Below, piece after piece: positions 37,540 through 50,748 of a stretch of DNA of 64,000 nucleotides. A program made the position numbers and the translations under genes. The notes below the pieces were generated by a model that worked only from the letters and a program-made list of their open reading frames with translations, had not been told where the DNA came from and made no database searches. Location: sequence record NC_048196.1; one strand, written 5' to 3'. The DNA is from Escherichia phage vB_EcoM_Schickermooser. Each line of letters begins with the position of its first letter. Positions within the stretch are counted from its first letter, which is position 1.

Positions 37540-37572
37540 TTTTACTTCTCCTCTTGTTTGGTTGATGAGACA

Positions 37573-37601
37573 AGTATAAGTCCCTTCCGTAAAGTTGTCA
37601 A
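37573..37601 (-). promoter_or_regulatory. sigma70-type promoter (TTGACA-N17-TATACT)
   Basis: On minus strand: -35 TTGACA (37601..37596), 17-nt spacer, -10 TATACT (37578..37573). Confidence 0.6.
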
Positions 37602-37615
37602 CAGGTATTTTTAAT

Positions 37616-37634
37616 AAAAGGGCCGAAGCCCTTA
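37616..37634 (-). terminator. terminator after primase-helicase gene
   Basis: AAGGGC-CGAA-GCCCTT hairpin overlapping stop codon, followed on minus strand by TTATTAAAAA. Confidence 0.5.
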
Positions 37635-39410
37635 ATAGTTGCTATCCGTAGGCAAATTAGCAGGATTGTTGAAATACTGCTCTTTGTCATGCAGAGTTGC
37701 AGTTCTAATGTCATAGTAAAACTGCCCTGCCGGACCCGTTTCCGAGAACTCACGGTTTTTTAGGATAAAGCAATGAGTCGTATTGCGTTCTACAGGGTCT
37801 TCAGCGGCTTTATCTCGTTCCAAAGCCAAGGTAATACCAGCACCTTTAGCCAAGAAACTACTACCCATTGCATCGTCCTCTGTTAAGTGTTCATTGCCAC
37901 CATTAGCTGACTTCTTAACGTGTGAGATGACGATAATAGTTATAGCATACTCTTTCATGATTCGCTTCAACCATGTTGCTAACTCTTCCTGGGCTTGAAC
38001 ATCCATACCAGAAAGCAAATCAGAATAAGGGTCGATAACAAGAATTGTTACTCCAAAATAGATGATCATCTCCAAAACTTTTTCTTTGATAGACTCCACA
38101 TCTGCTCCACGATCATCACACACATAAAAACGTGGTGATCCATCTTCTCTTTCGTAAAAATCTAGGATTTTTTCTTTATTCTCTTCCAAGATTTGAAATT
38201 TCTCTTCCGGTGTTTTCCTGTGTAGAGGAATATGCAAGAAAGAGGACAACAGGTTACGAGAATATTTCTTATAAGTTGCTTCCAAGGACAGAATACCTAG
38301 GGTATGTTCTGGGTGTGCAACGATAATATGTTTGGTGATCTCGTTCACCATCAAAGTTTTACCGATACTGGTCTTTGCCAGGATGACTGTAATCTCTTCC
38401 TCTACTAAACCACCACCCAGCATATTTGCAGCAACACGCATAAAAGGAGGCAAGGTAATCATCTTGGATTCCAAGCATTCTAATGCAGCTTCATACAAGA
38501 CATTAGAAGCATAAACACCTGCTGGGGTGTATAGACGAGCACTCCAAAAAGCTTTTACGAAATCTTTTGCACGACCTTCTTCCAGATACTGATTGGCATC
38601 CTTAAGATCCATCTGCATACGGTAGACTTTGTTACGAGGCAGCACCTTAACAATATTTTCAAATGCCTCATTACCTGCTTTGTCATTATCCATGCAAACA
38701 ATAATCTTCTTAAATTTTTCAAAGAAAGGATATTGTGCCTGAACTTGTTTATACATACTGGTTTCACCAGTTGTGCCACTAACTACTGCTGGAAGTTCAT
38801 ATTTGTTGTCCAAGTTTTCAGACAGCATTTGATAAGCTGCCAGAGCATCGTGTTCACCACCTGTAATTACCACAGTATGAGAACGGTCTGCAAAACGAAT
38901 TTGTCCAAAAAGATCTACATCTTTACCTACTTGACCAATAGGTTTACTGAAATCTTTAGGATGAATACGACGCTTAAAACCAACCAATTCTTTACCGATA
39001 GTAGTCGGATATAAACAACTTTCTACTACCATCTGATCCCCTTCCTGACGGTATTCATAACGAACACCATAGAAAGATGAAACTTTTTCTTTAATGCCTC
39101 GATAACCACGTGGGTTGGTTGATGTTTCTTGAACAATTTTACGATGAATCTGTTTATTAAATTCCGAACCCACAATCTCCTCCTCTTCTTCTAAAACTTC
39201 ACCATTTTCTCGTAACCATTCTACGCTAGGAATAGTGTATTCACACGCAAAGCACTTAGCACCTTTATGCTCTCCATTAGAATCTAATCCATAAACCATC
39301 AGGTTATTACGAGAGCGATCCTTGCCATTTTTCATGCAGCGCGGACAACCTGTATGCCCTTCCTTGCTAAGATCAACATCAAATCCATATTTAGTTATAA
39401 TGTGCGACAC
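37632..39410 (-). CDS. DNA primase-helicase (T7 gp4-like)
   Basis: N-terminal Cys4 zinc ribbon (CPRCMKNG...CFACEY); C-terminal helicase with Walker A (SIGKT) and Walker B-like (VIDPYSDL). Confidence 0.85.
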   Translation of the reverse strand: MSHIITKYGFDVDLSKEGHTGCPRCMKNGKDRSRNNLMVYGLDSNGEHKGAKCFACEYTIPSVEWLRENGEVLEEEEEIVGSEFNKQIHRKIVQETSTNPRGYRGIKEKVSSFYGVRYEYRQEGDQMVVESCLYPTTIGKELVGFKRRIHPKDFSKPIGQVGKDVDLFGQIRFADRSHTVVITGGEHDALAAYQMLSENLDNKYELPAVVSGTTGETSMYKQVQAQYPFFEKFKKIIVCMDNDKAGNEAFENIVKVLPRNKVYRMQMDLKDANQYLEEGRAKDFVKAFWSARLYTPAGVYASNVLYEAALECLESKMITLPPFMRVAANMLGGGLVEEEITVILAKTSIGKTLMVNEITKHIIVAHPEHTLGILSLEATYKKYSRNLLSSFLHIPLHRKTPEEKFQILEENKEKILDFYEREDGSPRFYVCDDRGADVESIKEKVLEMIIYFGVTILVIDPYSDLLSGMDVQAQEELATWLKRIMKEYAITIIVISHVKKSANGGNEHLTEDDAMGSSFLAKGAGITLALERDKAAEDPVERNTTHCFILKNREFSETGPAGQFYYDIRTATLHDKEQYFNNPANLPTDSNY

Positions 39411-39422
39411 TTTGTTCTCCTG

Positions 39423-39701
39423 TTAAAATGGTTCGTTAGTCTCCATCATATATTCTGCTTCTAGTTCTTCCATATGCTTTCTAAATTGGAAAGCAATTTC
39501 TGCTACAGTTACATTTAAATCTTTTTCAAAAACTTCTGTAGAGCCTTCATAAAAACGAATACCGTCAATTAAAAGCCCTCCGTGGTAATCCCAATCACTT
39601 TCACGAGAAAGCGGGTTAGGCTCTTCATAATAGTAATCCACCTCCACGACTAAAGCTTTCCCGTTACGAGTGGTGTATTCAAAATCAAAAGTGTTAATCA
39701 T
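39423..39701 (-). CDS. hypothetical protein
   Basis: 92 aa. Confidence 0.4.
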   Translation of the reverse strand: MINTFDFEYTTRNGKALVVEVDYYYEEPNPLSRESDWDYHGGLLIDGIRFYEGSTEVFEKDLNVTVAEIAFQFRKHMEELEAEYMMETNEPF

Positions 39702-40645
39702 TATAGCTCCTCAAATAAAAGTCTACGACGCTCATTCAACACATCAATGTGATAATGAGTCCTGACATACTTAGCTAATGCTAATCCTTTCTCCATGCAA
39801 ACATCGGGAGCACTTAATAAGTATTCCGTAATATCTTTCCACTCGGAAGGTGTTTCAGCAAAGAATAACAAATCTTTAAACTCTTGTGTATGATAATTCT
39901 CACGAGGAGAACAGATCAAAGGTAAACCCTTAGCACCTGCCTCAAGAATTTTAAGATTGCTTTTTGCATTATTAAACACGTTATCAATCAATGGCGCAAG
40001 ACTGATTTGATGACCATCGTAAGATTCCATGTAGTTGGCATATGGTCTTACACCTTCATAAACACAAGTTGGTGCTACATTTTCTCTGATTACAGACCAT
40101 TCACGACTACTTAAAACTTCAGAATCCCTACGAAAACCACATATTGTAAGATCTTTACCAAAATCGGGCAAGATAGCCAAATCTTGTTTATGTGTTTCAC
40201 TTCCAGCCCAGACTAATGGAGTTTTGGAGTAGCGATCACGGGTCAACACAAATTGACCTTCCTCGTAAGGAAGTCCATTAGGGATTATGTGCACATTATC
40301 ATTGTATTGTGAAAGTTCAACTTGCAAGGCAGGTGTCGTAGTTGTAACAAGATCACTGTGCTCTAAAAACCATTTTAAATGTTCACGAATACCTGATTCA
40401 AAAATACCTTCTAACATGTGTCCTTTTGGAATAACTAAAGAGTCATCCAAATCCATAACCATTTTAAAGCCTAGGTTTTTAAGGGCTAAAAAGCCCTCTT
40501 TACCTTTTGTTGGCACTCCGTTAAAAACGAAAACGTTGTGTTTAGGTTGTGAAGAGAACTGCCTTGAGTAAGGCAGCACTACCCTATGGAAATCGCAGAC
40601 ACTATAATTGATTCCGTTACGATTGTCAAGAATTATTTGTCCCAT
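39701..40645 (-). CDS. glycosyltransferase, GT-B fold (paralog 1)
   Basis: C-terminal KSNLKILEAGAKGLPLICS matches GT-B sugar-donor-binding motif; paralogous to next gene. Confidence 0.55.
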   Translation of the reverse strand: MGQIILDNRNGINYSVCDFHRVVLPYSRQFSSQPKHNVFVFNGVPTKGKEGFLALKNLGFKMVMDLDDSLVIPKGHMLEGIFESGIREHLKWFLEHSDLVTTTTPALQVELSQYNDNVHIIPNGLPYEEGQFVLTRDRYSKTPLVWAGSETHKQDLAILPDFGKDLTICGFRRDSEVLSSREWSVIRENVAPTCVYEGVRPYANYMESYDGHQISLAPLIDNVFNNAKSNLKILEAGAKGLPLICSPRENYHTQEFKDLLFFAETPSEWKDITEYLLSAPDVCMEKGLALAKYVRTHYHIDVLNERRRLLFEEL

Positions 40646-40652
40646 ACTTCAC

Positions 40653-41600
40653 CTACAAACTTTCAATAACCTGGCGTCGCAATTCGTTTGCATCTGCCAG
40701 ATTATAATGTGTTCGAACATGTTCCGCTAAGAACAAGCCGCGATCTTCCCGATAGTTCGGATTGCGAAGAAGCTTAACAATTTCGTAATGCCATTCTGCT
40801 TTATTCTCTGCATAAGCAACAGCGCGAGCATCTACAGGGTTAAAATAAGGTAATACCTTAGAACAAACAATCGGAATACCTTTTGCCCCAGCTTCAAGGA
40901 TTTTGAGATTACTTTTACAATTATTAAAATCATTATCTACCAAAGGAGCTATAGCAATAGCATGACTTTCGTAAACACTCATGTAATTATCTAAATCTTT
41001 TACAGCAGCTTTATATTTGGCATTTGGTAAATTTCTACGGATCTTAATCCACTCTTGCCCTGTGATACTCTGCGAAGCTTCATACCCCGCAATAGTAAGA
41101 AGTTCATCATCAAAAGTGTTAGAGACTAGTCGTAAATCAGGTTCATGACTAGCACCTCCAGCCCATACAATAGGGGTACCGGATGAACGGTCATTTGACA
41201 AAGTAAATTGTCCGCTATCAAAAGGAAGTGCATTTCGGATTACAACAACATTTCTATTTAAATGACGGATTTTATATGCCAAATATTCCGTAGTCACAAT
41301 GACCACATCAGCAAGCTTAACCATAGCCACAATAGCGTGAGTGTTTGACTCATATAAACTTGCTAAATAATGTTCTGGATTAAGTTGGTAGAAATCATCT
41401 AAATCTACAACAATCTTAACACCTTGACGTTTCAGGGACAGAACATATTCTGCACCTTTAGAATGAATACGGTTAAACACGACAACATCTTTCTTAGGCT
41501 GAAAATTATTGTTGTTAAATGGTATAACAATACGATGATAATCACAACCGCTGTGAGGTTTTGCATCAATTTTCAGTTTAGTCCATTTTTTATTTGACAT
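40653..41600 (-). CDS. glycosyltransferase, GT-B fold (paralog 2)
   Basis: KSNLKILEAGAKGIPIVCS motif; start moved to ATG 41600 (GAGGAGG RBS) to avoid 50-nt overlap. Confidence 0.55.
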   Translation of the reverse strand: MSNKKWTKLKIDAKPHSGCDYHRIVIPFNNNNFQPKKDVVVFNRIHSKGAEYVLSLKRQGVKIVVDLDDFYQLNPEHYLASLYESNTHAIVAMVKLADVVIVTTEYLAYKIRHLNRNVVVIRNALPFDSGQFTLSNDRSSGTPIVWAGGASHEPDLRLVSNTFDDELLTIAGYEASQSITGQEWIKIRRNLPNAKYKAAVKDLDNYMSVYESHAIAIAPLVDNDFNNCKSNLKILEAGAKGIPIVCSKVLPYFNPVDARAVAYAENKAEWHYEIVKLLRNPNYREDRGLFLAEHVRTHYNLADANELRRQVIESL

Positions 41601-42273
41601 GTGCCAGTGCCTCCTCATAAGAAATTCGGATTTTCCCATTTTTAATATCTTCTAAAGACGCTTTATATTCTTCCCAGTTAATGCCAATAGCAGCTTCTTT
41701 CTCTTCTTTTGTCAGGTTAGCAAAAGGCATAGGATTGTTTCCAAAAACATCGTCTGGGTGGATATAAGCCATGATACGAAGTGGACAAGGTATTGCCTGA
41801 ATACCCTGATTCAAACCAGCAGCTTTCAAACGGTGTACCCATTCAGCATCTTCAAAACCATAGCCGTGAGTGTAAGGGCGGAAATAACCCATCTTCTCAA
41901 CAACGGCACGAGAATACATTGCAAATTGACACATTGCAAGCTCCCAGAGAATAACTTCTCCTTTACTCCCAACAACTTTATCTTTGAAATACTCCGGCAT
42001 ACCAAAGAAATCCCATCCTCCAGAGACAGCTTGATCTACAAAATATGTTTCCCATCCCTCCATGATTGGGTAGCAATCGTCGTCAAAAATAAACCAATAA
42101 TCATAACCTTCTTCATAAAACTGGTGCATAAGTTCATTCCTGGCGTAAGCTACACCTTTACGATCTGGATCGTTGAATACTCGAAAATCTGCATGTGGAT
42201 CTGTTACAAGATAGTCTTTAAGTGGACGGACACCTACAGTGATAACACCCACTCCGATTTTAATATTTTCCAT
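41590..42273 (-). CDS. glycosyltransferase, GT-A fold (GT2-like)
   Basis: KGVAYARNELMHQFYEEGYDYWFIFDDDCYP resembles GT2 nucleotide-sugar binding region with DxD. Confidence 0.5.
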   Translation of the reverse strand: MENIKIGVGVITVGVRPLKDYLVTDPHADFRVFNDPDRKGVAYARNELMHQFYEEGYDYWFIFDDDCYPIMEGWETYFVDQAVSGGWDFFGMPEYFKDKVVGSKGEVILWELAMCQFAMYSRAVVEKMGYFRPYTHGYGFEDAEWVHRLKAAGLNQGIQAIPCPLRIMAYIHPDDVFGNNPMPFANLTKEEKEAAIGINWEEYKASLEDIKNGKIRISYEEALAHVK

Positions 42274-42281
42274 TTTCTCTC

Positions 42282-42845
42282 CTAGATAGTTTTACTGTGA
42301 TCGTGACAGTGTAATAAATGATGTATAGACCGTTGAGGATTTGTTTGACCTAATCTGTAAATGTGAAACAGATACATTCCCCGCATCAATCCTAACCTCT
42401 TTCCTTTTTCATGTAAAGTGCGAGAGAAAATTAAGTCGAATTGGATAGATTTTTCTTCGAAAGGAATTTCATTCCACAATGATTTTCTAAAAAGCAAAAA
42501 GAAACCTGCCAGAGGTGTTCCGAAAGGAACTTCTTCAACACTCACTTTATGATATTCTCTTGCAATCTTAGCATATTCTATATGGTTTAGAATGTCTGGA
42601 TCATCGTTAATTTGGTTAGAGAAAAGCTGATAACCACTACCTAACCTGTTACAAGTTGCACCTATTACATCAAAAGGCGGGTTTGACATAACAAGCTCTT
42701 CAAGCATAGATGGTTGATCAGGTAGGAGGAACATCGTATCGGTATCTCTTAAACACACCCAACTATCATCTGGAAGAACGGCAATAGCTTCATTGATAGC
42801 CTTGCCGATATTTCCTGTCAGATAGGGAGTAATATAATAAATCAT
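42282..42845 (-). CDS. putative glycosyltransferase-like protein (weak)
   Basis: DxD-like LRDTDTMF; strong RBS. Confidence 0.3.
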   Translation of the reverse strand: MIYYITPYLTGNIGKAINEAIAVLPDDSWVCLRDTDTMFLLPDQPSMLEELVMSNPPFDVIGATCNRLGSGYQLFSNQINDDPDILNHIEYAKIAREYHKVSVEEVPFGTPLAGFFLLFRKSLWNEIPFEEKSIQFDLIFSRTLHEKGKRLGLMRGMYLFHIYRLGQTNPQRSIHHLLHCHDHSKTI

Positions 42846-42861
42846 TCTCCCCTCCGTTATA

Positions 42862-43053
42862 TTAACTGTCAGCTACAATCCCACGTTTAATCATTTCTTG
42901 TTGGATTTGGATGACACGATCTCGTGCTTCCATATATTCTTTAAAAGATTCTTGTAGATGGTCACGAGCTACATCCCGTAGTTTAATCAGTTTGTCGTTT
43001 GTCACTTCTTGAAGAGAGATCTCGCCAGTTTCATTGGTCCCAAGCGTTTTCAT
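42862..43053 (-). CDS. hypothetical protein
   Basis: 63 aa helical. Confidence 0.35.
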   Translation of the reverse strand: MKTLGTNETGEISLQEVTNDKLIKLRDVARDHLQESFKEYMEARDRVIQIQQEMIKRGIVADS

Positions 43054-43261
43054 TTACAACCTCCTTAATAGCTACTGCACAGTTCTTACAAATACATTGA
43101 CCTTTGTTCTTAGAAATTTCAATGTAAGGTTCATTTTCGTTTTCTCCGCGTCGTGAATCGTATATTACAGTATTGAAGCAGACAACGCAAATGTTTTTAA
43201 TAACGACATATTTTTGCACTTTTTGTTTAGTGCGAAAATTGACTTCAATGACTTCTCCCAT
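43031..43261 (-). CDS. small zinc-ribbon protein
   Basis: CVVC...CKNC; start at ATG overlapping upstream stop (TGATG). Confidence 0.4.
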   Translation of the reverse strand: MGEVIEVNFRTKQKVQKYVVIKNICVVCFNTVIYDSRRGENENEPYIEISKNKGQCICKNCAVAIKEVVNENAWDQ

Positions 43262-43545
43262 CAGTGAATCTCCCCTAAAATGTTGTTTTGAGACATTACT
43301 GCGGAGCATTCTACAGCATCATGAGTCCTTGCAAAACGCTCCCACAACACAGCATCTACTTTAAGAACCATACAAGGATAAATACTGTCGTTGATCATAT
43401 CAATGCTATATTTATCTACATCCTTTTCATCTTCCATAAACAAAGTAGCGTATGCTTCCAAATGTTTACGGGTGTAGTATACGTCCTCTTCGGTAAGACC
43501 GACAACCAGGTAACTTGCTACAACAACAGTATTATCTTCTTGCAT
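43261..43545 (-). CDS. hypothetical protein
   Basis: ATG at 43545 with AAGGGGAG RBS. Confidence 0.4.
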   Translation of the reverse strand: MQEDNTVVVASYLVVGLTEEDVYYTRKHLEAYATLFMEDEKDVDKYSIDMINDSIYPCMVLKVDAVLWERFARTHDAVECSAVMSQNNILGEIH

Positions 43546-43546: not shown

Positions 43547-44068
43547 TTAACTCCCCTTTGGTAGATAGAAACCATGCACTTTATCTCGATAAACAAGACG
43601 CATATCACGCTCCCAGTGTGTCCTTATATTCCGTTTCTTGAAGTATAGAGCACCTTTAGTAACATCTAAAACAGACCGCAATTCAGGAAAATGTTTCTCT
43701 AAATAAAGTAAACGCTCCGCTATTGCTTTTGCTTCCTGCCACTTATCTTTCTCTGTCACGTTAAAAGTTTTCGCATATGAGAATTGCCCTTTCTGGAACA
43801 AGACTCCCTTGACTGTGTTAGGGAAGTAGGCATCATTTCTTCTGTTGATTACCACATTCCCAACGGCATTCATTCCTTTTTTACCCAGACCGCGACCTTC
43901 TGCGTAAATTGCACAAGCTAATAGAATTTTATCATTATATTGCTTTGTACATTTGTGAACTACTTTAGCGGTTTTTACGTTTGCAGCTTCGGCTTTCGCC
44001 ACAACAGGTGTAAATGTAAAAGCAGTTAAGGATAGTAACGCAACTGTTACAAAGTTTTTTATCAGCAA
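43547..44068 (-). CDS. cell wall hydrolase, SleB-like, with N-terminal signal peptide (candidate endolysin)
   Basis: Signal-like N-terminus (VTVALLSLTAFTFTPVVAKA); AIYAEGRG...GMNAVGNVVINRRN...GQFS matches SleB-like signature. Confidence 0.65.
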   Translation of the reverse strand: MLIKNFVTVALLSLTAFTFTPVVAKAEAANVKTAKVVHKCTKQYNDKILLACAIYAEGRGLGKKGMNAVGNVVINRRNDAYFPNTVKGVLFQKGQFSYAKTFNVTEKDKWQEAKAIAERLLYLEKHFPELRSVLDVTKGALYFKKRNIRTHWERDMRLVYRDKVHGFYLPKGS

Positions 44069-44100
44069 ATTTTGCCTCCTTTTTAAGTTAACGAACTTCT

Positions 44101-44129
44101 AGTATAACACGATAGAGGCTTTATTGCAA
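44101..44129 (-). promoter_or_regulatory. sigma70-type promoter (TTGCAA-N17-TATACT)
   Basis: On minus strand -35 TTGCAA (44129..44124), -10 TATACT (44106..44101); ~30 nt upstream of RBS/ATG at 44068. Confidence 0.5.
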
Positions 44130-44150
44130 GAGGGGGGATTTCTCCCCCTC
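44130..44150 (-). terminator. hairpin downstream of terD (weak terminator)
   Basis: GAGGGGGG-att-TCTCCCCCTC stem; weak U tract. Confidence 0.4.
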
Positions 44151-44168
44151 AAAATCATTTGTTAATTA

Positions 44169-44771
44169 TTATGGACATTCATACCATTCTTTTTTACCAC
44201 CGAAGGCCATCACCACATCGCAAATATCCAGACCAGCTTTACCTACACCATATGCTTTCAGCTTCCATTCTCCATCTTCACGAACCAGGGAAGCCACGTG
44301 GCAGATTGTGTTGCCAGCTACTTCAGGAGCCAGGAAGTCAAAATCCAGAATTTCCACATTACGCTCGGAGTCGAAGATTTTAAGCATACCTTCAGAAGCA
44401 TGACCAAAACGTTTCAGACCTGTATCATCATCAATAGTCAGAACAAAGGCAATCTCTTGTGCATCAGGAGAGATTTTAGCCAGAGTAATATCAATCTGCT
44501 CCATGCTGCCAGTTCCATCACGAACATCGTCACCAGCAAAGGTAGAACGTTCAGGATCAAACTTATTAGCATAGCAAACCAGATGACGTGCAGACAGCAT
44601 TTCAGGATTGCCAGCGGCATTGTGACGACAAACCAGTGCACTTACATCCAGATCCAGTTTAGAATCAGATTTCCAAGAGAATTCCAGGCGTAGTTCTTTC
44701 AGAGCCGGAGCAACTTTCTTCAGGGAAATTTTTTCGCTAGAGCCTTTTTTCAGGGAAATTTTATCAGTCAT
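44169..44771 (-). CDS. terD: TerD-family stress-response protein
   Basis: N-terminal ISLKKG...ISLKK, DLDVSALVC, and C-terminal EDGEWKLKAYGVGKAGL match TerD-domain signatures. Confidence 0.85.
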   Translation of the reverse strand: MTDKISLKKGSSEKISLKKVAPALKELRLEFSWKSDSKLDLDVSALVCRHNAAGNPEMLSARHLVCYANKFDPERSTFAGDDVRDGTGSMEQIDITLAKISPDAQEIAFVLTIDDDTGLKRFGHASEGMLKIFDSERNVEILDFDFLAPEVAGNTICHVASLVREDGEWKLKAYGVGKAGLDICDVVMAFGGKKEWYECP

Positions 44772-44786
44772 CTTTTGTCTCCTCTA

Positions 44787-45056
44787 TTATTTAAGTGTAA
44801 TACCAGTTACAGTCAATTCTACTTCCAAAAGCTTAGATGTGTTTTGGATTGCTACTAATTGTGCATGATGGTTTAGTTCTACAGCAGAATAATCATTTTC
44901 CCCATCATCTACTTTTAAATAAACAATTACTTCACTAAGGTCTAAACCATTTTCGTCAAATGCATTTTCATAGACGAAAGTATCTCCTACATCCAAATCT
45001 TTAATGGTAAGGCATCGTTTATTTACTTTTTGCTCATCAATTTCGAAGTTTAACAC
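44787..45056 (-). CDS. hypothetical protein, paralog B of 46078..46356
   Basis: Shares DLDVGDTFVYENAFDENGLD and EVELTVTGITLK with paralog A. Confidence 0.45.
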   Translation of the reverse strand: MLNFEIDEQKVNKRCLTIKDLDVGDTFVYENAFDENGLDLSEVIVYLKVDDGENDYSAVELNHHAQLVAIQNTSKLLEVELTVTGITLK

Positions 45057-45285
45057 TTCTTCCTCCTAATGTTATCTCCGGTTTGTATATACGAAGAATT
45101 ATAGCATTTTCATTTTCTTTGTCAACCCATTCTTCATAATCAGGCCATACATGAATCTCTACTCTACTTACAATATCTTCCATCCGCACAGTCCCAATGA
45201 AATATTCTTTGAGACTGCGCATAATGAAAGCTTCTCTCTCGCGCCAATAATTTTCTACGACTTGAGAGGCAAGCTCGTCGATCAT
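45037..45285 (-). CDS. hypothetical protein
   Basis: 82 aa. Confidence 0.35.
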   Translation of the reverse strand: MIDELASQVVENYWREREAFIMRSLKEYFIGTVRMEDIVSRVEIHVWPDYEEWVDKENENAIILRIYKPEITLGGRSVKLRN

Positions 45286-46076
45286 TTTTTAGCACCTACT
45301 TTAACAACCCACTCTCCGAACTCTTCAGATAAGAGTTTGTCATAAAGCTCTGAATCTGTCAAGTCTAAATCTTTAATGCCAATAAAACCAACATTGTCAT
45401 AAGCATTTGCCAGTTCTTTCAGGAAGCTGAACTTCTCATTACCAACGCCAACCATGAACCAATAGATAGGCTTATTCTTATTCTCTTCAATAAGACGACG
45501 AACAGCACTAGGATCACCATTCTCACCGTCTGTCTGGAAGAATACAACGCCAGGAGTAACATCAGCACCTGGTTCAGATACAGCTACAACTTTTTCACGC
45601 TCTACCGATACTGTTTCAGTTTTACCAAGCAGACGATTAAAGAAGCCTTTCTTTGGAGCCTCCTCTTGTACCACTTGTTTAGTGGTAACATATTTGGTAA
45701 CAGTGCCAAAATACTCATCGTAGATATCTGCCATTACAGGGGCGTAATTTGTTCCACCTCCGATACGAACATTACGCATACATTTACCAACGTAGTCATC
45801 GTAAACGTCTGCTGTTGCTGGAGTAAGCTCTTGAGAACTCGTATTGAAGGCCCACATGTCAATTTGTTCATTATCGTCGAACAGCATACCAAAAGGAAGC
45901 AGTTTACCTACAAAATCACTCACTACCCCACGAGTATATAGACCATGCATACTACCAGAAATATCTAGAGCACATGCTACACGAAGAACAATCTTACCTT
46001 CGTTCAGGTTCTTATTCTTTTTCAGAGAGAAAGCAAGGTTTTCTTGACGTTTTTTCAGGCTGATTTTCTCGGACAT
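45282..46076 (-). CDS. von Willebrand factor A domain protein (TerF/TerY-like)
   Basis: MIDAS motif DISGSM; N-terminal EKISLKK...SLKK resembles TerD leader. Confidence 0.6.
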   Translation of the reverse strand: MSEKISLKKRQENLAFSLKKNKNLNEGKIVLRVACALDISGSMHGLYTRGVVSDFVGKLLPFGMLFDDNEQIDMWAFNTSSQELTPATADVYDDYVGKCMRNVRIGGGTNYAPVMADIYDEYFGTVTKYVTTKQVVQEEAPKKGFFNRLLGKTETVSVEREKVVAVSEPGADVTPGVVFFQTDGENGDPSAVRRLIEENKNKPIYWFMVGVGNEKFSFLKELANAYDNVGFIGIKDLDLTDSELYDKLLSEEFGEWVVKVGAKK

Positions 46077-46077
46077 A

Positions 46078-46356
46078 TTATTTCTCCTTCTTAAGTGTAA
46101 TATTGGTAACTTCTAAATCTACTTCCACCATATTTGTATCTGGTGGGATGCAATGAGTATAGCCTCGTTGTGCTAGTGATCCATTAATACAGATCGCACT
46201 GTTTGTGGAATTTTTAATGAACACCAAGTTACGGTAGGTATCCAACCCTGCGTCTTCATAGGCATCATAATACATGAATGTGTCCCCTATGCCAAGGTCT
46301 TCGAAAGCAATAGGTAAATCCTGACACTTTTCTTCTTGAATATTGAATCTAAACAC
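46078..46356 (-). CDS. hypothetical protein, paralog A of 44787..45056
   Basis: GTG start at 46356 with GGAGG RBS gives 92 aa aligned with paralog B; track ATG 46422 would overlap upstream gene by 74 nt. Confidence 0.4.
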   Translation of the reverse strand: MFRFNIQEEKCQDLPIAFEDLGIGDTFMYYDAYEDAGLDTYRNLVFIKNSTNSAICINGSLAQRGYTHCIPPDTNMVEVDLEVTNITLKKEK

Positions 46357-46912
46357 GCATACCTCCTCTACCAATTTTGAAGCCCAAATCGTAAGCTTCC
46401 TTAGTGATCTTTTGTAACTCACTTATAGGAAGTGTTACAAGAGGATCATCTTCTTCAATTTCCATCTTGTCATCTTCTGTTTCAATGAGAGTATTATGCA
46501 CTTTGTGATAAGGGTTGTCAACACGTTTAAACTTATTCTTTTCTGTGCTGAAAAAACAATCTGGATCTTCTTCGCCATCACCCCAACCTTGGTTAGGATC
46601 TCCGTCAGATTGTTCTGTAGGGATTTCACCTGTAAAATACTCTTCCAGCACCATAGCGATACCGTCCCTTGGATTCGAGGAATGCATTAAATCACAAACC
46701 TTACCCCAATCCATAGCCCATTCGAACCGTTCACGAACGCCATTTTCATCCTCCTTTCCAGAGAAAACACAACCATAACTATCATAGTTGCCATACATCT
46801 CTTCAATAACAACACCATCCTTCAAAAGAAAGAGATAGCAAGGTGATCCGTCGAAAGAAGTAGAAAGGGCAGCTTTGCCCGATTCCTTACACAAAAAGCT
46901 AAAACAACCCAT
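46349..46912 (-). CDS. hypothetical acidic protein
   Basis: 187 aa, D/E-rich. Confidence 0.4.
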   Translation of the reverse strand: MGCFSFLCKESGKAALSTSFDGSPCYLFLLKDGVVIEEMYGNYDSYGCVFSGKEDENGVRERFEWAMDWGKVCDLMHSSNPRDGIAMVLEEYFTGEIPTEQSDGDPNQGWGDGEEDPDCFFSTEKNKFKRVDNPYHKVHNTLIETEDDKMEIEEDDPLVTLPISELQKITKEAYDLGFKIGRGGMRV

Positions 46913-47109
46913 TACAAACCCTCCTTCAGATTATCAAGAGCTACAGTGGTTTCACAAAATTCTCCATACGCTTTATGATGTTCTAGAAAAGCTTCAGGTC
47001 CACCCCAATCATTATCTTGTGTATTCCAACCATCAATAAAAGCATCTTCAATGATTGTGATCAGTTCCTGTCGAGTCAACGTAATGGTATCAGGTTTTGG
47101 ATTATGCAT
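46912..47109 (-). CDS. hypothetical small acidic protein
   Basis: 65 aa. Confidence 0.35.
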   Translation of the reverse strand: MHNPKPDTITLTRQELITIIEDAFIDGWNTQDNDWGGPEAFLEHHKAYGEFCETTVALDNLKEGL

Positions 47110-47275
47110 CTTCTTTCTCCTCTAAAATATGAAACCCATAGCTACAATAGTCCTGAAAGGTTTCGTGTGCAAGATCTTCTATATCCTCTTGAGACATATC
47201 ATCTTCAATTTCGATATCCACAACCTCATTGCATCCACACCAAGCAGTTTCAATATTCACTCGTAAAGTTTTCAT
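47102..47275 (-). CDS. hypothetical small acidic protein (57 aa, not in ORF track)
   Basis: ATG overlaps upstream stop (ATGA); very acidic. Confidence 0.35.
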   Translation of the reverse strand: MKTLRVNIETAWCGCNEVVDIEIEDDMSQEDIEDLAHETFQDYCSYGFHILEEKEDA

Positions 47276-47469
47276 TCTTCTTCCTCATTGAAGTCAATAT
47301 CTGCAAGGAGTTGAAATTTACGGAAGTTACGACAACCTTCATAAATATAACAATCACGACAAACTGCTAGAACACTTGGGGGATATATGCCTCCCATCGG
47401 TGCGAATCGTTTTTCGTCATCATAACGGACACCAATGTCTTCATCAATTATATAGATACGGATTCTCAT
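47272..47469 (-). CDS. hypothetical small Cys-containing protein
   Basis: 65 aa. Confidence 0.35.
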   Translation of the reverse strand: MRIRIYIIDEDIGVRYDDEKRFAPMGGIYPPSVLAVCRDCYIYEGCRNFRKFQLLADIDFNEEEE

Positions 47470-48578
47470 TTACCAAGCCCTCGTTTCACAGCAGCTACCA
47501 TCCCGTCTTCCAGAGATTGAACTTCATTAATATAATCAACACGAGCAGCACGGGCTTCCGTATTGATGCGGTTAGTTTCTTCCAACATCTTAACCAAGTT
47601 TTCCTGATCGTGACGCAGAGTTTCAATATCCAACACTTGACGGTTAGCCAGTGCTGCTGCTTCGATCTGATTCTGTGTGGCAAGATCGCTACCCAGTTTA
47701 ATTGCCAGGTTAAATTCATCAAGAACGTTATTCTGCGTCTCTGCTGCTTTCATTTGACGTAAGCTCTCGATATACATTGAGAAGTTAGCAGAGTAAGCAG
47801 GAATAACATTATTTACTATGTTACGCGCAGATCGCATTAAGCTTGCAGAAACTTTTTGCATACCTTGCACACGTGGTCCCATTTGGACACACAGTAGGCG
47901 CAATGCTTTTAAATCGGCAATACGAATCTCCAGAAGATCCAAAGTATCTCGGATCACTTGTCGCTGTTCTACTGCATCTTCTGGAAGAGCAGCCAAAGCT
48001 TGTTCTTCTTTTTCATAGGTTGCTGTTAGAAGCTGCATATCTCGGTTCAAACTTGCAGCATATTGTCCAATAGCTTGATGCAGTTTTTCAAGATATACCA
48101 AGGAATCTTCTTCTTTGCGAATATCCATTTGAAGGTTCTTTACCAACTCTTCAATACGGTTATTAACATTATCAAACTCCCCAAACAGGTCTTCTTTCAT
48201 ACCCATAACTTTTTTAATGAGTTTAGTAATACCTTTGCTTTGTTTAATAGAGTTTGGATCAAGTTGTTTTGCCTGTTTAATCAAAGCTGTGAGTCGTTCA
48301 CTCATCTGATCGCCTTGATTACTACGTTGATGTTTTAATACCTCGGCATTCAAGGAACGCAAGGTTGTCCCTGCCTCTGCCCCGATCTCTTCGATCTCTT
48401 GTCGGGTCATAGAAGGCAAAACTGGGACTTCTTGCGGTGCGGCTGGTGCATAAACAGGACTGGCATCTAATACGCTTGGAGCGAATACAGATTTACTTGC
48501 ATCTGTTGTTGCAGTGAATACACTCATTTCAGACTTCTTCTGACCACCAGTAGCTGCTTTTAAAAACGGACTTGTCAT
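47466..48578 (-). CDS. TelA-like (toxic anion resistance family) coiled-coil protein, tentative
   Basis: 370 aa, predominantly helical/coiled-coil, size and context (between terC and terD) consistent with TelA/KlaA family; not motif-verified. Confidence 0.4.
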   Translation of the reverse strand: MTSPFLKAATGGQKKSEMSVFTATTDASKSVFAPSVLDASPVYAPAAPQEVPVLPSMTRQEIEEIGAEAGTTLRSLNAEVLKHQRSNQGDQMSERLTALIKQAKQLDPNSIKQSKGITKLIKKVMGMKEDLFGEFDNVNNRIEELVKNLQMDIRKEEDSLVYLEKLHQAIGQYAASLNRDMQLLTATYEKEEQALAALPEDAVEQRQVIRDTLDLLEIRIADLKALRLLCVQMGPRVQGMQKVSASLMRSARNIVNNVIPAYSANFSMYIESLRQMKAAETQNNVLDEFNLAIKLGSDLATQNQIEAAALANRQVLDIETLRHDQENLVKMLEETNRINTEARAARVDYINEVQSLEDGMVAAVKRGLGK

Positions 48579-49165
48579 TCTTCATTCTCCTCTTCTGCAT
48601 CTCTTATGTATGGTGAAACACCGTATTCTTTAGCTACTTTAACCCAATCGTCCCATTTATACAACCATAATTTTCCTTCTGTTCCTTCTTTATCTGATTT
48701 TAACCACATATTAGGTTGCTTACCTGGATACATGCGATTAGGTTTACGATTATACCCTCTAACACATCTTGTCGCAAACCTATCCACCAAAACAAGAACA
48801 TATTTATATTCATGGTTCAACGGCTCTTTGGAAGTAGCTTTAGGGTTTGCCCCTAATTCTGCTGCCAGTTTTTGCCAATGAGCACCGTGCCGACTAAACT
48901 TACCCATACAACCATCAATAGCATGAGCAATTTCGTGCTTCATTGTATCCACGATCATATCTCTTGTAGAGTTCTTATGCAAGTGCCAATTTACAACAAC
49001 AATTTTATCTCGGTAGTTGCACCAACCGAAAGAGTTATTCACTTTGTTTCTAACGCAAGCTTTATATCCTGCTTCACGTAACATGTTGTAGTAAACAGGA
49101 AAATCTTCTTTTATTTCCTGCATCACTTCCCACCACAAGAGTTGCAAGTCTCTCTCGGTATACAT
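48575..49165 (-). CDS. SprT-like zinc metallopeptidase (HExxH)
   Basis: MKHEIAHAIDGCMGKFSRHGAHWQKLAAELG contains HExxH followed by HG..W. Confidence 0.55.
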   Translation of the reverse strand: MYTERDLQLLWWEVMQEIKEDFPVYYNMLREAGYKACVRNKVNNSFGWCNYRDKIVVVNWHLHKNSTRDMIVDTMKHEIAHAIDGCMGKFSRHGAHWQKLAAELGANPKATSKEPLNHEYKYVLVLVDRFATRCVRGYNRKPNRMYPGKQPNMWLKSDKEGTEGKLWLYKWDDWVKVAKEYGVSPYIRDAEEENEE

Positions 49166-49168
49166 AAC

Positions 49169-49762
49169 TTACACCTTAAAAGTGAAATGCGTGGTCGTGG
49201 CTTCAAAATCAGGGCCAGATAAACGTGCACTGAAATCTGAAATATTTGTAATTAAAAAGCTTTTATGCATACCCAACACAGCCACGCTTTCAATATCTTC
49301 TACTAACATTTCAATCATGTTAGAAACATGGCTGAACGTAGTGTTTTGTTTTTTGATGGTGTAGAAAGAAAGATTCCCACCTGCTGTATAAGATACTTCT
49401 TCAAAATCTTTAATCGTATACTGTGTCCCATCAGTAAAGAAAATGGTAGCTTTATTAGTAGCACGTTTCTTGTTTTTTGGTCCTTTTTTACGTTTACTGC
49501 GAGTAGGAAAACCATTTGGGAATACCGTAGCTACAAATTCTTCAGGAGAAACCTCCTTACCGAAATCATAACCATAAGAAACAGCATCTATAAACTCATC
49601 GTCCTCATTTTTAAAATAATGGAAATAGGGCCAATTTGAAAGATTATCAAGCATCTTATGCTCGTCCACAGCAGAGAATGTATCCCTCAAAGCGCGTGTG
49701 ATTTGCAAAGCATTAGGCAACCTTTTAACACCTACGATGGAAGTACGAATAGAAATTGTCAT
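49169..49762 (-). CDS. hypothetical protein
   Basis: 197 aa. Confidence 0.4.
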   Translation of the reverse strand: MTISIRTSIVGVKRLPNALQITRALRDTFSAVDEHKMLDNLSNWPYFHYFKNEDDEFIDAVSYGYDFGKEVSPEEFVATVFPNGFPTRSKRKKGPKNKKRATNKATIFFTDGTQYTIKDFEEVSYTAGGNLSFYTIKKQNTTFSHVSNMIEMLVEDIESVAVLGMHKSFLITNISDFSARLSGPDFEATTTHFTFKV

Positions 49763-49776
49763 TGTTTTTCTCCTTA

Positions 49777-50214
49777 TTAACGTCGCTTGCTACGAGATGA
49801 ACTCTTTTTACTTAAAGGGCTATTGTAAGATTTACGAGTTGTATAGCTACTATTTGTTTTAAAAGTTTGTCTCGGCTTTTCATAAGTTTTTATCTCTTGT
49901 TTAGGCTTACTATAAAAATTAGTTTTCGGTTTAGGTGTGTTATAATGTTTATTAATAATCGTTCTGTTATCGTTATAATCCCCGCCGCTACGATTACTAC
50001 TACCGCTCATCATATGTCCTAACAACATACCTGTAGCAAACTCACCAACACCGCTACTACTAGAACCGCCACCATTGTTGATAATAGTTGTATCTCCGTC
50101 AGATCCTTGTTGAGCGTATTGTTGAGGAGGTTGTTGATATTGTGTAGGATTTGTTTCATCCTCGCAAGCTGTTAAAAAGATACAACCAATTAAAATCAGG
50201 GCTAGTTTTTTCAT
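49777..50214 (-). CDS. lipoprotein (Gly/Ser-rich, glycine-zipper-like)
   Basis: Start at ATG 50214 (GAGGAA RBS): MKKLALILIGCIFLTAC lipobox; GGGSSSSGVGEFATGMLLGHMMSG. Confidence 0.55.
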   Translation of the reverse strand: MKKLALILIGCIFLTACEDETNPTQYQQPPQQYAQQGSDGDTTIINNGGGSSSSGVGEFATGMLLGHMMSGSSNRSGGDYNDNRTIINKHYNTPKPKTNFYSKPKQEIKTYEKPRQTFKTNSSYTTRKSYNSPLSKKSSSRSKRR

Positions 50215-50401
50215 ATTTGCTTTCCTCGTTTTGACTATTAATACATCTGTGTTTGAAATCTCCAGAGAAGCAATAAAGCTGCTCTCCATCTCGGTATAAA
50301 CTCACTTTACTGCCGTTGATTACGCTTGTCAATACAAAAATTACAACAAACAACCCTATTGCAAAACAAATATTTTCAAACACAACCAACAAGTATTTCA
50401 T
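50156..50401 (-). CDS. small N-terminally membrane-anchored protein overlapping lipoprotein start
   Basis: ATG overlaps upstream stop (ATGA); N-terminal TM (LLVVFENICFAIGLFVVIFVL); overlaps lipoprotein gene by 59 nt in another frame. Confidence 0.45.
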   Translation of the reverse strand: MKYLLVVFENICFAIGLFVVIFVLTSVINGSKVSLYRDGEQLYCFSGDFKHRCINSQNEESKYEKTSPDFNWLYLFNSLRG

Positions 50402-50748
50402 TTTAAAAATACCTCATCATCAGTTTCATTATCCCAGAAGAACAAATCCCAACCATTAGGATCATTCCACTTGGCGGTTGGAGAAGTCCAAATTTGTTCG
50501 ATATCAATATTCAAAACTTCGCCGTTTCGTTTTGAAACAGCCTTGGTTAATTCCCAACGAGATACAGGTTCTACCTCTCCTGAACCACTCCCACAACAAG
50601 CTACTACATTAGGAGGAAGGTTAATTGGATCTTTGGTCACAATCATAACGCTTACCCCAGGGTAAACTTTTGAAAGATAATCTGAAACGTAATCAACATC
50701 ACCAGGTAAATCCCAAACAAGTTTTTGAATTTCATCGAAATTGCTCAT
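50398..50748 (-). CDS. hypothetical protein
   Basis: 116 aa; GGAGAG RBS. Confidence 0.4.
   Translation of the reverse strand: MSNFDEIQKLVWDLPGDVDYVSDYLSKVYPGVSVMIVTKDPINLPPNVVACCGSGSGEVEPVSRWELTKAVSKRNGEVLNIDIEQIWTSPTAKWNDPNGWDLFFWDNETDDEVFLK

What the first reader, a model, noticed from the sequence alone, without database searches (positions are those of the whole stretch)
43547..44068. Signal-peptide SleB-like cell-wall hydrolase as the only recognisable lysis gene, first gene of an early-strand operon with no adjacent holin
The hydrolase carries an N-terminal secretion or signal-anchor sequence and the SleB-like catalytic signature. It is transcribed from a sigma70-like promoter (44101-44129) together with glycosyltransferase and replication genes, and no holin-like gene neighbours it; the small TM proteins are several kb away. 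This suggests Sec-dependent export and an atypical lysis timing mechanism.
Basis: partly seen in the sequence, partly recalled or inferred. Interest (0 to 1): 0.4.

Follow-up and report, generated by a model that had tools for sequence, protein, structure and literature searches.

The report
Exported SleB-like wall hydrolase, second lysin
This gene of a phAPEC8-like E. coli phage encodes a small cell-wall-cutting enzyme that is almost certainly exported to the periplasm, but it is an already annotated, widespread second wall hydrolase that sits alongside a normal T4-type lysozyme and spanins elsewhere in the genome, not a lone atypical lysis system.

Summary
The ORF is real: 43547-44068 (-), 173 aa, TTG start. 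It is a single-domain SleB/CwlJ-family hydrolase (Pfam Hydrolase_2, E 2e-17; AF2 model matches the SleB catalytic domain; invariant Glu57). It has a canonical N-terminal Sec-type signal (n-h-c regions, Pro21, AXA sites at residues 24-28).

A hairpin, a sigma70-like promoter with an extended -10, the RBS and the TTG start are conserved across three groups of relatives. No TM protein lies within about 5 kb.

The window is a Phapecoctavirus (98-99% identical to about 63 GenBank genomes), where this gene is already annotated "cell wall hydrolase SleB/endolysin". "Only lysis gene" is a window artefact. Relatives also carry a soluble T4 e-type lysozyme (47% identical to T4 gpe) and an i-/o-spanin pair next to the terminase gene.

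Signal-bearing homologues occur in Vequintavirinae and T5-like phages, and a membrane-anchored one in PAK_P3-like phages. Each of these lineages has its own canonical endolysin. The PAK_P3 homologue is transcribed equally early and late.

Most likely it is an accessory periplasmic murein hydrolase that does not depend on late expression. Its exact role, and the holin, remain unidentified. The feature is already known; interest is low to moderate.

The parts
43547..44068 (-). CDS of the 173-aa precursor of a single-domain SleB/CwlJ-family (Hydrolase_2) murein hydrolase. TTG start at 44068-44066, TAA stop at 43549-43547.
   Evidence: The gene is 98-99% identical to the 'putative cell wall hydrolase SleB/endolysin' genes of about 63 Phapecoctavirus records.
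43985..44068 (-). Signal-peptide coding part, residues 1-28. n-region MLIK, h-region NFVTVALLSLTAFTF, c-region TPVVAKAEA. Candidate SPase I sites are VVA|K, AKA|E and AEA|A.
   Evidence: Hydropathy and the -3/-1 rule. A small-x-small site is kept in relatives. AF2 predicts a helix at residues 4-19 followed by coil. Diverged homologues also carry signal peptides. SignalP was not run.
43565..43885 (-). Hydrolase_2 (PF07486) catalytic domain, residues 62-168 as matched by Pfam. The folded core spans roughly residues 37-170.
43898..43900 (-). GAA codon of Glu57 in the motif IYAEGRG. It aligns with the Glu of YGESRGE in SleB and is invariant in a 67-sequence alignment. (Tool outputs number it E56, because the first codon was omitted from the query.)
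   Evidence: The assignment of this residue as the catalytic Glu rests on my knowledge of the SleB crystal-structure papers.
44075..44080 (-). Shine-Dalgarno AGGAGG, 6 nt upstream of the TTG start. Both are conserved in Justusliebigvirus and PsgM04F.
44101..44129 (-). Sigma70-like promoter: -35 TTGCAA (44129-44124), 17-nt spacer, extended -10 TGtTATACT (44109-44101).
   Evidence: 9/12 match plus the TG. The elements are conserved across three groups of relatives. No transcript data exist.
44130..44150 (-). GC-rich hairpin GAGGGGG-AGAAAT-CCCCCCTC between the TerD gene and the promoter. It lacks a U-tract, so it is at best a weak terminator or an RNA-stability element.
   Evidence: MFE -16 kcal/mol, z -1.7. 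The stem is kept, with sequence changes, in relatives.
37632..43545 (-). Tightly packed co-directional genes downstream: three small soluble ORFs, four glycosyltransferases, one small ORF and a primase/helicase. The run ends at the next hairpin plus TTGACA-17-TATACT promoter (37540-37631). This is the probable transcription unit headed by the hydrolase gene.
   Evidence: Co-transcription is inferred from spacing only.

Best explanation
The gene encodes a roughly 19.7-kDa precursor. The Sec pathway is predicted to export it, and signal peptidase I to cleave it around residues 24-28. That would leave a basic (pI about 10), roughly 16.8-kDa, single-domain SleB/CwlJ-type murein hydrolase in the periplasm. 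It is probably a lytic transglycosylase using Glu57.

It is transcribed by host sigma70 RNA polymerase from its own conserved promoter, probably also by read-through from upstream. It sits within the DNA-metabolism, glycosyltransferase and Ter gene block rather than with the late structural genes. It is translated from a conserved weak TTG start.

It is an accessory wall hydrolase, not the phage's sole endolysin. The lineage also has a cytoplasmic T4 e-type lysozyme, which would need a still unidentified holin, and an i-/o-spanin pair for the final steps of lysis.

Its likely task is limited, holin-independent cutting or remodelling of the sacculus during infection. That could prime the wall for rapid lysis or feed peptidoglycan turnover.

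Shown here: domain, fold, conserved Glu, signal-like N-terminus, conserved promoter/RBS/TTG, and co-occurrence with a second lysin and spanins.
Inferred: export and cleavage, enzymatic chemistry, timing, and physiological role.
For: Identity of the enzyme:
- Pfam, PDB sequence and fold matches, and the invariant Glu.

Export signal:
- n-h-c layout with AXA sites, kept in close relatives.
- Signal peptides are also present in homologues only about 33-37% identical: FFH2 (VVA|A), NINP13076 (VLA|K) and the T5-like STG2 (SHA|T).
- 129 of the 150 top family representatives have an N-terminal hydrophobic segment.

Expression signals:
- Promoter, RBS and TTG start are conserved.
- Non-ATG starts also occur in FFH2 (GTG) and NINP13076 (TTG).

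A second lysin in this lineage:
- ESCO5 gp080 is a soluble T4 e-type lysozyme (PF00959, 47% identical to T4 e, E/D/T motif positions present). It is found in 63 records at >=95% identity, the same number as the SleB-like gene.
- The spanin pair lies upstream of the terminase gene (PMC6139136).
- The two-lysin content is published for Phapecoctavirus (PMC10793346).

Other lineages carrying a homologue keep a separate endolysin:
- STG2 has a holin-endolysin pair 25 kb away.
- PAK_P3 has gp28 plus downstream holin/spanin candidates (PMC5563952).
- rV5 has Gp89 (PMC3606486).
- PVP-SE1 and BME3 are described as having two endolysins (PMC12210895).

Timing and location of homologues:
- PAK_P3 gp151 shows an early-versus-late log2 fold change of 0.62, p = 0.28, so it is not a late-only gene. 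The authors treat it as an auxiliary metabolic gene possibly linked to accumulation of wall precursors (PMC4933390).
- rV5 gp2 is not named among the virion proteins found by mass spectrometry.
Against: - No expression, localisation or activity data exist for this protein or any close relative.
- The CB7 homologue was reported toxic on expression in E. coli, and CR3_087 was 'implicated in host lysis' (PMC7344957).
- In Certrevirus and in Seunavirus NINP13076, a 2-TMD holin-like ORF directly follows the SleB-like gene. This looks like a lysis cassette and favours a genuine endolysin role there.
- The h-region is somewhat more conserved (0.76 pairwise identity) than the mature protein (0.66). 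That is unusual for a segment that is simply discarded.
- The endolysin role of the T4-type lysozyme in this phage is also only inferred from homology.
- Signal-peptide cleavage was judged by heuristics, not by SignalP.
Confidence: 0.6

Rival explanations
1. It is the phage's true, secretory endolysin. It is exported by Sec throughout infection and kept latent in the energised envelope. It is unleashed when a holin or pinholin collapses the proton-motive force, in the manner of Lys44 of Oenococcus phage fOg44. The T4-type lysozyme would then be auxiliary.
For: - An export signal on a murein hydrolase.
- Toxicity of the CB7 homologue, and its neighbouring class II holin-like gene (PMC7344957).
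- A 57-aa protein with two TMDs and a basic C-terminus immediately downstream in NINP13076.
- The SleB-like gene is the conserved element across all Vequintavirinae genera, whereas the other lysin varies: lysozyme, M15 peptidase, or an IPR023346-type enzyme.
- Databases label it 'endolysin'.
Against: - Every lineage examined keeps another canonical endolysin, including a holin-endolysin pair in T5-like STG2.
- No holin-like gene is adjacent here.
- The PAK_P3 homologue is not late-regulated.
- The database labels rest on homology only.
Confidence: 0.22
2. It is a SAR (signal-anchor-release) endolysin. The N-terminal segment is not cleaved. It tethers an inactive enzyme to the inner membrane until depolarisation releases it, as in P1 Lyz or phage 21 R.
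For: - The hydrophobic stretch, residues 6-24, is long enough (19 aa) to span a membrane and is 42% Gly/Ala/Ser/Thr.
- The h-region is more conserved than the mature domain.
- The Nankokuvirus homologue CHA_P1 gp152 has an anchor-like N-terminus with no obvious cleavage site.
Against: - Pro21 and the AF2 model end the helix at about residue 19.
- A canonical small-x-small site follows the helix and is kept in relatives and in diverged homologues.
- 53% of the segment is strongly hydrophobic, which from my knowledge is higher than in classical SAR domains.
- There is no Cys in the segment and no adjacent pinholin.
Confidence: 0.08
3. It has a non-lytic envelope role: local opening of the sacculus for a phage-made envelope structure, superinfection exclusion, or envelope remodelling together with the downstream glycosyltransferases.
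For: - It shares a probable transcription unit with four glycosyltransferases.
- It lies next to the membrane-associated Ter genes.
- In rV5-like phages it sits next to rIIA/rIIB.
Against: - The neighbours differ in every lineage and no partner gene is shared.
- Nothing links the glycosyltransferases to the envelope. A 'putative dTDP glycosylation machinery' is discussed only in the context of restriction-modification (PMC8594841).
Confidence: 0.08
4. It is a virion-associated lysin used during DNA injection.
For: It is a murein hydrolase encoded by a large myovirus, and no muralytic domain was detected in the tail proteins tested.
Against: - A Sec signal would remove it from the cytoplasm, where virions assemble.
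- It is encoded outside the structural module.
- The rV5 homologue gp2 is not named among virion proteins found by mass spectrometry.
Confidence: 0.02

Closest known systems
Annotated 'putative cell wall hydrolase SleB / endolysin' of phAPEC8, ESCO5 and other Phapecoctavirus genomes (e.g. ESCO5 HOR27_gp207)
   Same: 98-99% identical protein with the same position and neighbours. The genus is already reported to encode two lytic proteins, Phage_lysozyme and Hydrolase_2 (PMC10793346).
   Different: Nothing substantive; this is the same gene. No experimental work on it was found.
SleB-like hydrolases of Vequintavirinae (rV5 gp2, the PVP-SE1/BME3 'second endolysin', CB7_83, CR3_087)
   Same: About 33-37% identical, the same size, a signal peptide, the two conserved Cys residues (HxC...LAC), a location among early/replication genes, and coexistence with another lysin.
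   Different: There the gene sits beside rIIA/rIIB, and in Certrevirus and Seunavirus it is followed by a 2-TMD holin-like ORF. Here the downstream ORF is soluble.
Bacillus SleB / CwlJ spore-cortex lytic enzymes (PDB 4F55, 4FET)
   Same: The catalytic-domain fold, the Glu-containing motif, and a signal peptide in SleB.
   Different: It has no N-terminal PG-binding domain, so it is CwlJ-like in architecture. The host wall lacks the muramic delta-lactam that SleB requires (my knowledge), so substrate specificity must differ. Identity is only 26-27%.
Secretory and SAR endolysins (Lys44 of fOg44; P1 Lyz; phage 21 R)
   Same: A murein hydrolase that reaches the wall through Sec without needing a holin pore.
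   Different: Those enzymes are the phage's main endolysin and have holin or pinholin partners. This one coexists with a canonical soluble lysozyme, has no adjacent partner, and has a cleavage-type rather than a SAR-type N-terminus.
PAK_P3 gp151 'cell wall hydrolase' (Nankokuvirus), treated as an auxiliary metabolic gene
   Same: A Hydrolase_2 protein with a membrane-targeting N-terminus, encoded among DNA-metabolism genes and separate from the endolysin gp28.
   Different: 33% identity. Its N-terminus looks like an uncleaved anchor. It is the only homologue with transcript data, which show equal early and late levels.

Membership tests
SleB/CwlJ cell-wall hydrolase family (Pfam Hydrolase_2, PF07486) | Profile match above the curated threshold | tested here: met
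   64.1 bits against a cutoff of 27, E 2e-17, covering profile positions 3-100 of 100.
SleB/CwlJ cell-wall hydrolase family (Pfam Hydrolase_2, PF07486) | Fold of the SleB catalytic domain | tested here: met
   The AF2 model (pLDDT 90.7) matches 4F55/4FET with probability 1.0 and target-normalised TM 0.71-0.75. There are no other significant hits.
SleB/CwlJ cell-wall hydrolase family (Pfam Hydrolase_2, PF07486) | Conserved catalytic glutamate in the YxE(A/S)RG motif | tested here: met
   Glu57 is invariant in 67 sequences and aligns with the Glu of YGESRGE in 4F55.
SleB/CwlJ cell-wall hydrolase family (Pfam Hydrolase_2, PF07486) | Lytic transglycosylase activity on peptidoglycan | not testable with these tools
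   Needs muropeptide analysis for 1,6-anhydroMurNAc products.
SleB proper (two-domain spore cortex-lytic enzyme) | N-terminal PG-binding domain preceding the catalytic domain | tested here: not met
   Only one Pfam domain is found. Just about 30 residues separate the signal peptide from the fold.
Canonical holin-dependent endolysin | Soluble cytoplasmic protein without an export signal | tested here: not met
   An N-terminal signal-like segment with AXA sites is present.
Canonical holin-dependent endolysin | Holin gene adjacent, or the gene lies in a lysis cassette | tested here: not met
   The flanking ORFs have no TMD. The spanins lie about 50 kb away in ESCO5.
Canonical holin-dependent endolysin | Late expression | not testable with these tools
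   No transcript data exist for this genus. The PAK_P3 homologue is not late-specific. No T4-type late motif lies upstream.
SAR endolysin | Uncleaved, weakly hydrophobic (Gly/Ala/Ser-rich) N-terminal TMD | tested here: inconclusive
   42% Gly/Ala/Ser/Thr and 53% strongly hydrophobic residues. The helix ends at about residue 19 before Pro21, and conserved AXA sites follow. This leans towards a cleavable signal peptide. SignalP and Phobius were not available.
SAR endolysin | Pinholin partner | tested here: not met
   No small TM protein lies within about 5 kb. The small TM proteins of the genome match only PHROGs of unknown function.
Secretory (signal-peptide) endolysin of the Lys44 type | Cleavable Sec signal peptide on the lysin | tested here: inconclusive
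   Heuristic n-h-c and -3/-1 analysis is positive and the pattern is conserved in homologues. There is no dedicated predictor result or experiment.
Secretory (signal-peptide) endolysin of the Lys44 type | Serves as the phage's principal murein hydrolase for lysis | tested here: not met
   A T4 e-type lysozyme is found in 63 records at >=95% identity, the same number as the SleB-like gene. Which enzyme drives lysis is not known experimentally.
Virion-associated lysin | Encoded in the structural module, fused to a structural protein, or found in virions | tested here: not met
   It is a stand-alone gene in the replication/Ter block. rV5 gp2 is not named in the virion mass-spectrometry list. Virion proteomics for Phapecoctavirus were not found.

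The most novel reading that the evidence does not exclude
Exported SleB/CwlJ-type hydrolases may form a third functional class of phage murein hydrolase, alongside endolysins and virion lysins. They coexist with a canonical endolysin in at least four separate lineages of virulent Gram-negative phages: Stephanstirmvirinae, Vequintavirinae, T5-like phages, and Pakpunavirus/Nankokuvirus. About 1,000 genomes carry one. The enzyme would be Sec-exported, not restricted to late expression, deliberately weakly translated, and would act on the sacculus before lysis, for example by priming the wall or driving peptidoglycan turnover.
Probability: 0.35. Interest if true: 0.5.

Novelty: already known. Interest (0 to 1): 0.25.

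Why it matters
As a finding about this window it matters little. The gene, its family, the signal peptide in homologues and the two-lysin content of the genus are already in GenBank records and papers.

An open question remains. More than 1,000 phage genomes keep an exported SleB-like hydrolase in addition to a normal endolysin, and nobody has shown what it does. Nor has the holin of the phAPEC8/phi92 and rV5 groups been identified.

A gene knockout plus timing data in one of these easily grown coliphages would settle whether these enzymes are redundant endolysins or a distinct pre-lysis function. It would also inform the routine database labelling of such genes as 'endolysin'.

Tried and rejected
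- The first AF2 run, on 16 close relatives, gave pLDDT 59.5 and was discarded. It was rerun with 67 diverse sequences.
- I looked for a repeated phage-specific promoter motif resembling the one upstream of the gene. There were 5 hits at up to 3 mismatches against 4.1 expected, so no motif family exists.
- I looked for T4-type late motifs (TATAAATA, and the rV5-type TggTAaAAtA) upstream of the hydrolase or lysozyme genes. Nothing informative turned up.
- I tried to identify the holin:
  - The ESCO5 gene annotated 'hol-like chemotaxis' has no TMD.
  - The ORF upstream of the T4-type lysozyme is hydrophilic.
  - All small TM proteins of the genome fall in PHROGs of unknown function and have no Pfam match.
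- I tested whether the SleB-like gene travels with a conserved partner gene across lineages. It does not.
- The word-indexed homologue search returned only close relatives. The exhaustive profile search was needed to reach further.
- The phi92 genome/proteome paper (PMC3457257) is not held, so virion proteomics for the closest characterised relative could not be checked.
- A lipoprotein reading was rejected because there is no Cys before residue 40.

Full report
WHAT IS THERE

The ORF at 43547-44068 on the minus strand is real. It encodes 173 aa and starts with TTG, six bases after an AGGAGG ribosome-binding site. The next in-frame Met is residue 65, downstream of the catalytic motif, so TTG is the only sensible start.

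The protein matches Pfam Hydrolase_2 (PF07486), the SleB/CwlJ cell-wall hydrolase family, at 64 bits against a cutoff of 27 (E 2e-17). It also matches PHROG 938 'endolysin'. Its only sequence relatives in the PDB are the SleB catalytic domains 4F55 and 4FET.

An AlphaFold model built on 16 close relatives was poor (pLDDT 59.5). A second model on 67 diverse family members reached pLDDT 90.7. Its only significant structural neighbours are the same SleB catalytic domains (Foldseek probability 1.0, target-normalised TM 0.71-0.75).

The Glu of the IYAEGRG motif is invariant in the 67-sequence alignment and aligns with the Glu of YGESRGE in SleB. It is Glu57 in full-length numbering; tool outputs number it 56 because I omitted the first codon from the query. 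There is no PG-binding domain, so the architecture is CwlJ-like rather than that of SleB proper.

THE N-TERMINUS

Residues 1-28 have the classical n-h-c layout: MLIK, then NFVTVALLSLTAFTF, then TPVVAKAEA. The best 19-residue hydropathy window scores 1.94. Small-x-small sites follow A24, A26 and A28. The good model places a helix at residues 4-19, followed by coil.

Among 15 relatives at 56-90% identity, a small-x-small site is kept at the equivalent of residues 26-28, while the c-region as a whole is the least conserved part. Cleavage would leave a protein of about 145 aa and 16.8 kDa with a pI near 10.

Homologues only about 33-37% identical also carry signal peptides:
- Vequintavirus FFH2...SLPVVA|APK.
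- Seunavirus NINP13076...TPVLA|KEN.
- T5-like STG2...NSHA|TYD.

The Nankokuvirus CHA_P1 homologue instead has an anchor-like segment without an obvious cleavage site.

An exhaustive profile search found 20,614 family members at E<1e-3. Of the 150 best representatives, 129 have an N-terminal hydrophobic segment. An export signal is therefore the family norm.

I could not run SignalP. I judge a cleavable Sec signal much more likely than a SAR anchor. One point leans the other way: the h-region is slightly more conserved than the mature protein (0.76 against 0.66 pairwise identity).

Two Cys residues, C40 and C52, are conserved in the mature part in Stephanstirmvirinae and Vequintavirinae. The wider family has a different Cys pair. 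Both patterns fit oxidative folding in the periplasm, but that is inference.

EXPRESSION SIGNALS

The 100-nt gap upstream (44069-44168) holds three elements:
- a GC-rich hairpin (44150-44130) without a U-tract;
- TTGCAA (44129-44124), followed by a 17-nt spacer;
- TGtTATACT (44109-44101), an extended -10.

As a pattern match the promoter is unremarkable: 9/12, in a scan that found 49 sites against 32 expected in 12 kb. It does not belong to a repeated motif family. The hairpin folds no better than 8 of 200 shuffles (z -1.7).

The same gap in Justusliebigvirus EmilieFrey and in phage PsgM04F keeps the -35 hexamer, the TG, most of the -10 hexamer, the stem, the RBS and the TTG start. I therefore accept it as a probable promoter.

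Similar hairpin-plus-TTGACA promoters occur at 37540-37631, 32437-32481 and 51766-51844 on the same strand, and at 9836-9961 inside the tail module. rV5, a related phage, was likewise reported to have sigma70-type promoters all over its genome (PMC3606486). The presence of such a promoter therefore says little about timing.

Downstream, genes are packed without gaps until the next hairpin and promoter at 37540-37631. They comprise three small soluble ORFs, four glycosyltransferases, a small ORF and the primase/helicase. Read-through from the TerD gene upstream cannot be excluded.

Non-ATG starts occur here (TTG), in NINP13076 (TTG) and in FFH2 (GTG). This suggests selection for weak translation. 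That would fit the toxicity reported for the CB7 homologue.

WHERE THE WINDOW COMES FROM, AND WHAT THAT CHANGES

The region is 98-99% identical to about 63 GenBank genomes of the genus Phapecoctavirus: phAPEC8, ESCO5, KKP 3954 and others. In them this gene is annotated 'putative cell wall hydrolase SleB' or 'endolysin'.

The window corresponds to roughly 67.7-131.7 kb of ESCO5. Within the window I found no other muralytic domain among the tail and baseplate proteins tested. No TM protein lies within about 5 kb of the gene.

Outside the window, ESCO5 carries two further lysis functions:
- gp080, a 166-aa soluble protein with the T4 lysozyme signature (MLRVDEGLKL...YQDHLGYWTVGIGH; PF00959), 47% identical to T4 gene e;
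- an overlapping i-spanin/o-spanin pair immediately upstream of the large terminase gene. This pair is already catalogued as a phi92/phAPEC8 spanin family (PMC6139136).

The lysozyme occurs in 63 records at >=95% identity and in 68 more at 60-90%. The SleB-like gene shows 63 and 67. From these matching counts I infer that both enzymes are carried throughout Phapecoctavirus and Justusliebigvirus.

A genome announcement already states that Phapecoctavirus 'encodes two lytic proteins', Phage_lysozyme and Hydrolase_2 (PMC10793346). 'Only recognisable lysis gene' is therefore an artefact of the window boundary.

No holin is annotated in the genome. The gene labelled 'hol-like chemotaxis' has no TMD. 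The ORF next to the lysozyme is hydrophilic. The roughly ten small TM proteins of the genome match only families of unknown function.

THE WIDER PATTERN

tblastn finds homologues in 1,087 phage records. They fall into Stephanstirmvirinae, Vequintavirinae, T5-like Demerecviridae, Pakpunavirus/Nankokuvirus and a few others. In each lineage I checked, the phage has a separate canonical endolysin:
- rV5 has Gp89, a Phage_lysozyme, with a distant putative holin (PMC3606486).
- Septuagintavirus and CB7 have an M15 peptidase plus the SleB-like protein.
- STG2 has an adjacent holin-endolysin pair 25 kb from its SleB-like gene.
- PAK_P3 has endolysin gp28, followed by holin/spanin candidates (PMC5563952).

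The SleB-like gene always sits among early or DNA-metabolism genes: next to rIIA/rIIB in rV5-like phages, and next to ligase, DprA and helicase genes in CHA_P1. No neighbour is shared between lineages.

The only timing data are for PAK_P3 gp151. Its normalised counts at 3.5 and 13 min differ by log2 0.62 (p = 0.28), so it is already transcribed early (PMC4933390 supplement). Those authors treat it as an auxiliary metabolic gene that might explain the accumulation of wall precursors late in infection.

For CB7, the signal peptide, the toxicity on expression in E. coli and the presence of homologues in all Vequintavirinae genera were already noted (PMC7344957). A survey of phage lysins lists Hydrolase_2 among the dominant catalytic domains of Gram-negative phage lysins. 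It predicts signal peptides in 28% of them (PMC8223927).

MOST LIKELY MECHANISM

I think the protein is exported by Sec, cleaved, and acts in the periplasm as a low-abundance murein hydrolase. It is probably a lytic transglycosylase, and it acts from before the late phase. The main holin-dependent endolysin would be the T4-type lysozyme, and the spanins would complete lysis. My confidence is about 0.6.

The main rival (about 0.22) is that it is a genuine secretory endolysin, kept latent until the membrane is depolarised. Four observations support this rival:
- the toxicity of the CB7 homologue;
- class II holin-like ORFs directly downstream of the gene in Certrevirus;
- a similar ORF that I found in Seunavirus NINP13076, 57 aa with two TMDs and a basic tail;
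- the SleB-like gene is the conserved element across Vequintavirinae, while the other lysin is swapped between genera.

A SAR mechanism (0.08), a non-lytic envelope role (0.08) and a virion lysin (0.02) are less likely, for the reasons given under the rival explanations.

VERDICT

Its headline claim that this is the only lysis gene is wrong for the genome, and its timing claim is untested. The feature is already annotated and described in the literature, so novelty is 'already known' and interest is low (0.25).

The residual value lies in the unanswered question of why so many virulent Gram-negative phages keep an exported SleB-like hydrolase beside a normal endolysin.

Noticed in passing
window 44169-54661 (-): A Ter stress-response-type gene set in a virulent phage: TerD (44169-44771), vWA-TerF (45282-46076), TelA (47466-48578) and TerC (50791-51765). 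The genes at about 52079-54661 correspond by position to the phosphatase, phosphoribosyltransferase and hydrolase annotated in ESCO5. Its function in infection is unknown.
   Followed up: partly
window 39701-42845 (-): Four consecutive glycosyltransferase genes lie in the same probable transcription unit as the hydrolase. One has a weak hit to the TET-associated glycosyltransferase family (E 0.0013, below threshold). ESCO5 also carries dTDP-rhamnose pathway genes outside the window. The BASEL paper mentions a 'putative dTDP glycosylation machinery' in phi92-like phages. The target, DNA or envelope, is unknown.
   Followed up: partly
window 18875-19135 (+): An 86-aa membrane protein (phrog_1322) with a TMD at residues 28-46, a second short hydrophobic stretch and a charged C-terminus. 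It is embedded in the late baseplate/tail operon. By position and likely timing it is a plausible holin candidate.
   Followed up: partly
window 51845-52066 (-): A 73-aa protein with two strong TMDs (phrog_16065, function unknown), immediately upstream of TerC, with a TTGACA-type promoter between them. It has class II holin-like topology but only a weakly charged C-terminus.
   Followed up: partly
window 49777-50289 (-) and 62849-63211 (-): Two more predicted exported proteins. The first is a lipoprotein (lipobox LTAC) with a long low-complexity, basic C-terminal part. The second is a 120-aa protein with a classical signal peptide (MRKVLFALLLLASTGVFA). Both match PHROGs of unknown function.
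   Followed up: no
window 45098-45125 (-): A perfect sigma70 consensus (TTGACA-16-TG-TATAAT, 12/12) lying inside the ORF 45037-45285, upstream of the gene at 44787-45056.
   Followed up: no
window 9836-9961 (+): A strong intrinsic terminator, followed by TTGACA-17-TGTGTTACAAT, inside the tail module and upstream of the Dit-like gene. Its -10 region is nearly identical to that of the Justusliebigvirus SleB promoter. This suggests sigma70-type promoters are also used within the 'late' block.
   Followed up: no
window 33707-36304 (-): The DNA polymerase ORF is 865 aa here, whereas ESCO5 annotates a 3,333-nt (1,110-aa) gene. The 735-nt difference is consistent with the shifted offset of the neighbouring genes. 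It could be an insertion in ESCO5, such as an intein or homing element, or a deletion here.
   Followed up: no
L007 3024-3197 (Salmonella phage NINP13076, Seunavirus): A 57-aa ORF with two TMDs and a basic C-terminus (RKARKRN) sits between the SleB-like gene and rIIA. It is a class II holin-like partner that is absent from the Phapecoctavirus locus.
   Followed up: partly
L002 48815-49141 (ESCO5 gp113): The RefSeq product name 'hol-like chemotaxis' is misleading. The protein is an acidic coiled-coil protein without any TMD.
   Followed up: yes
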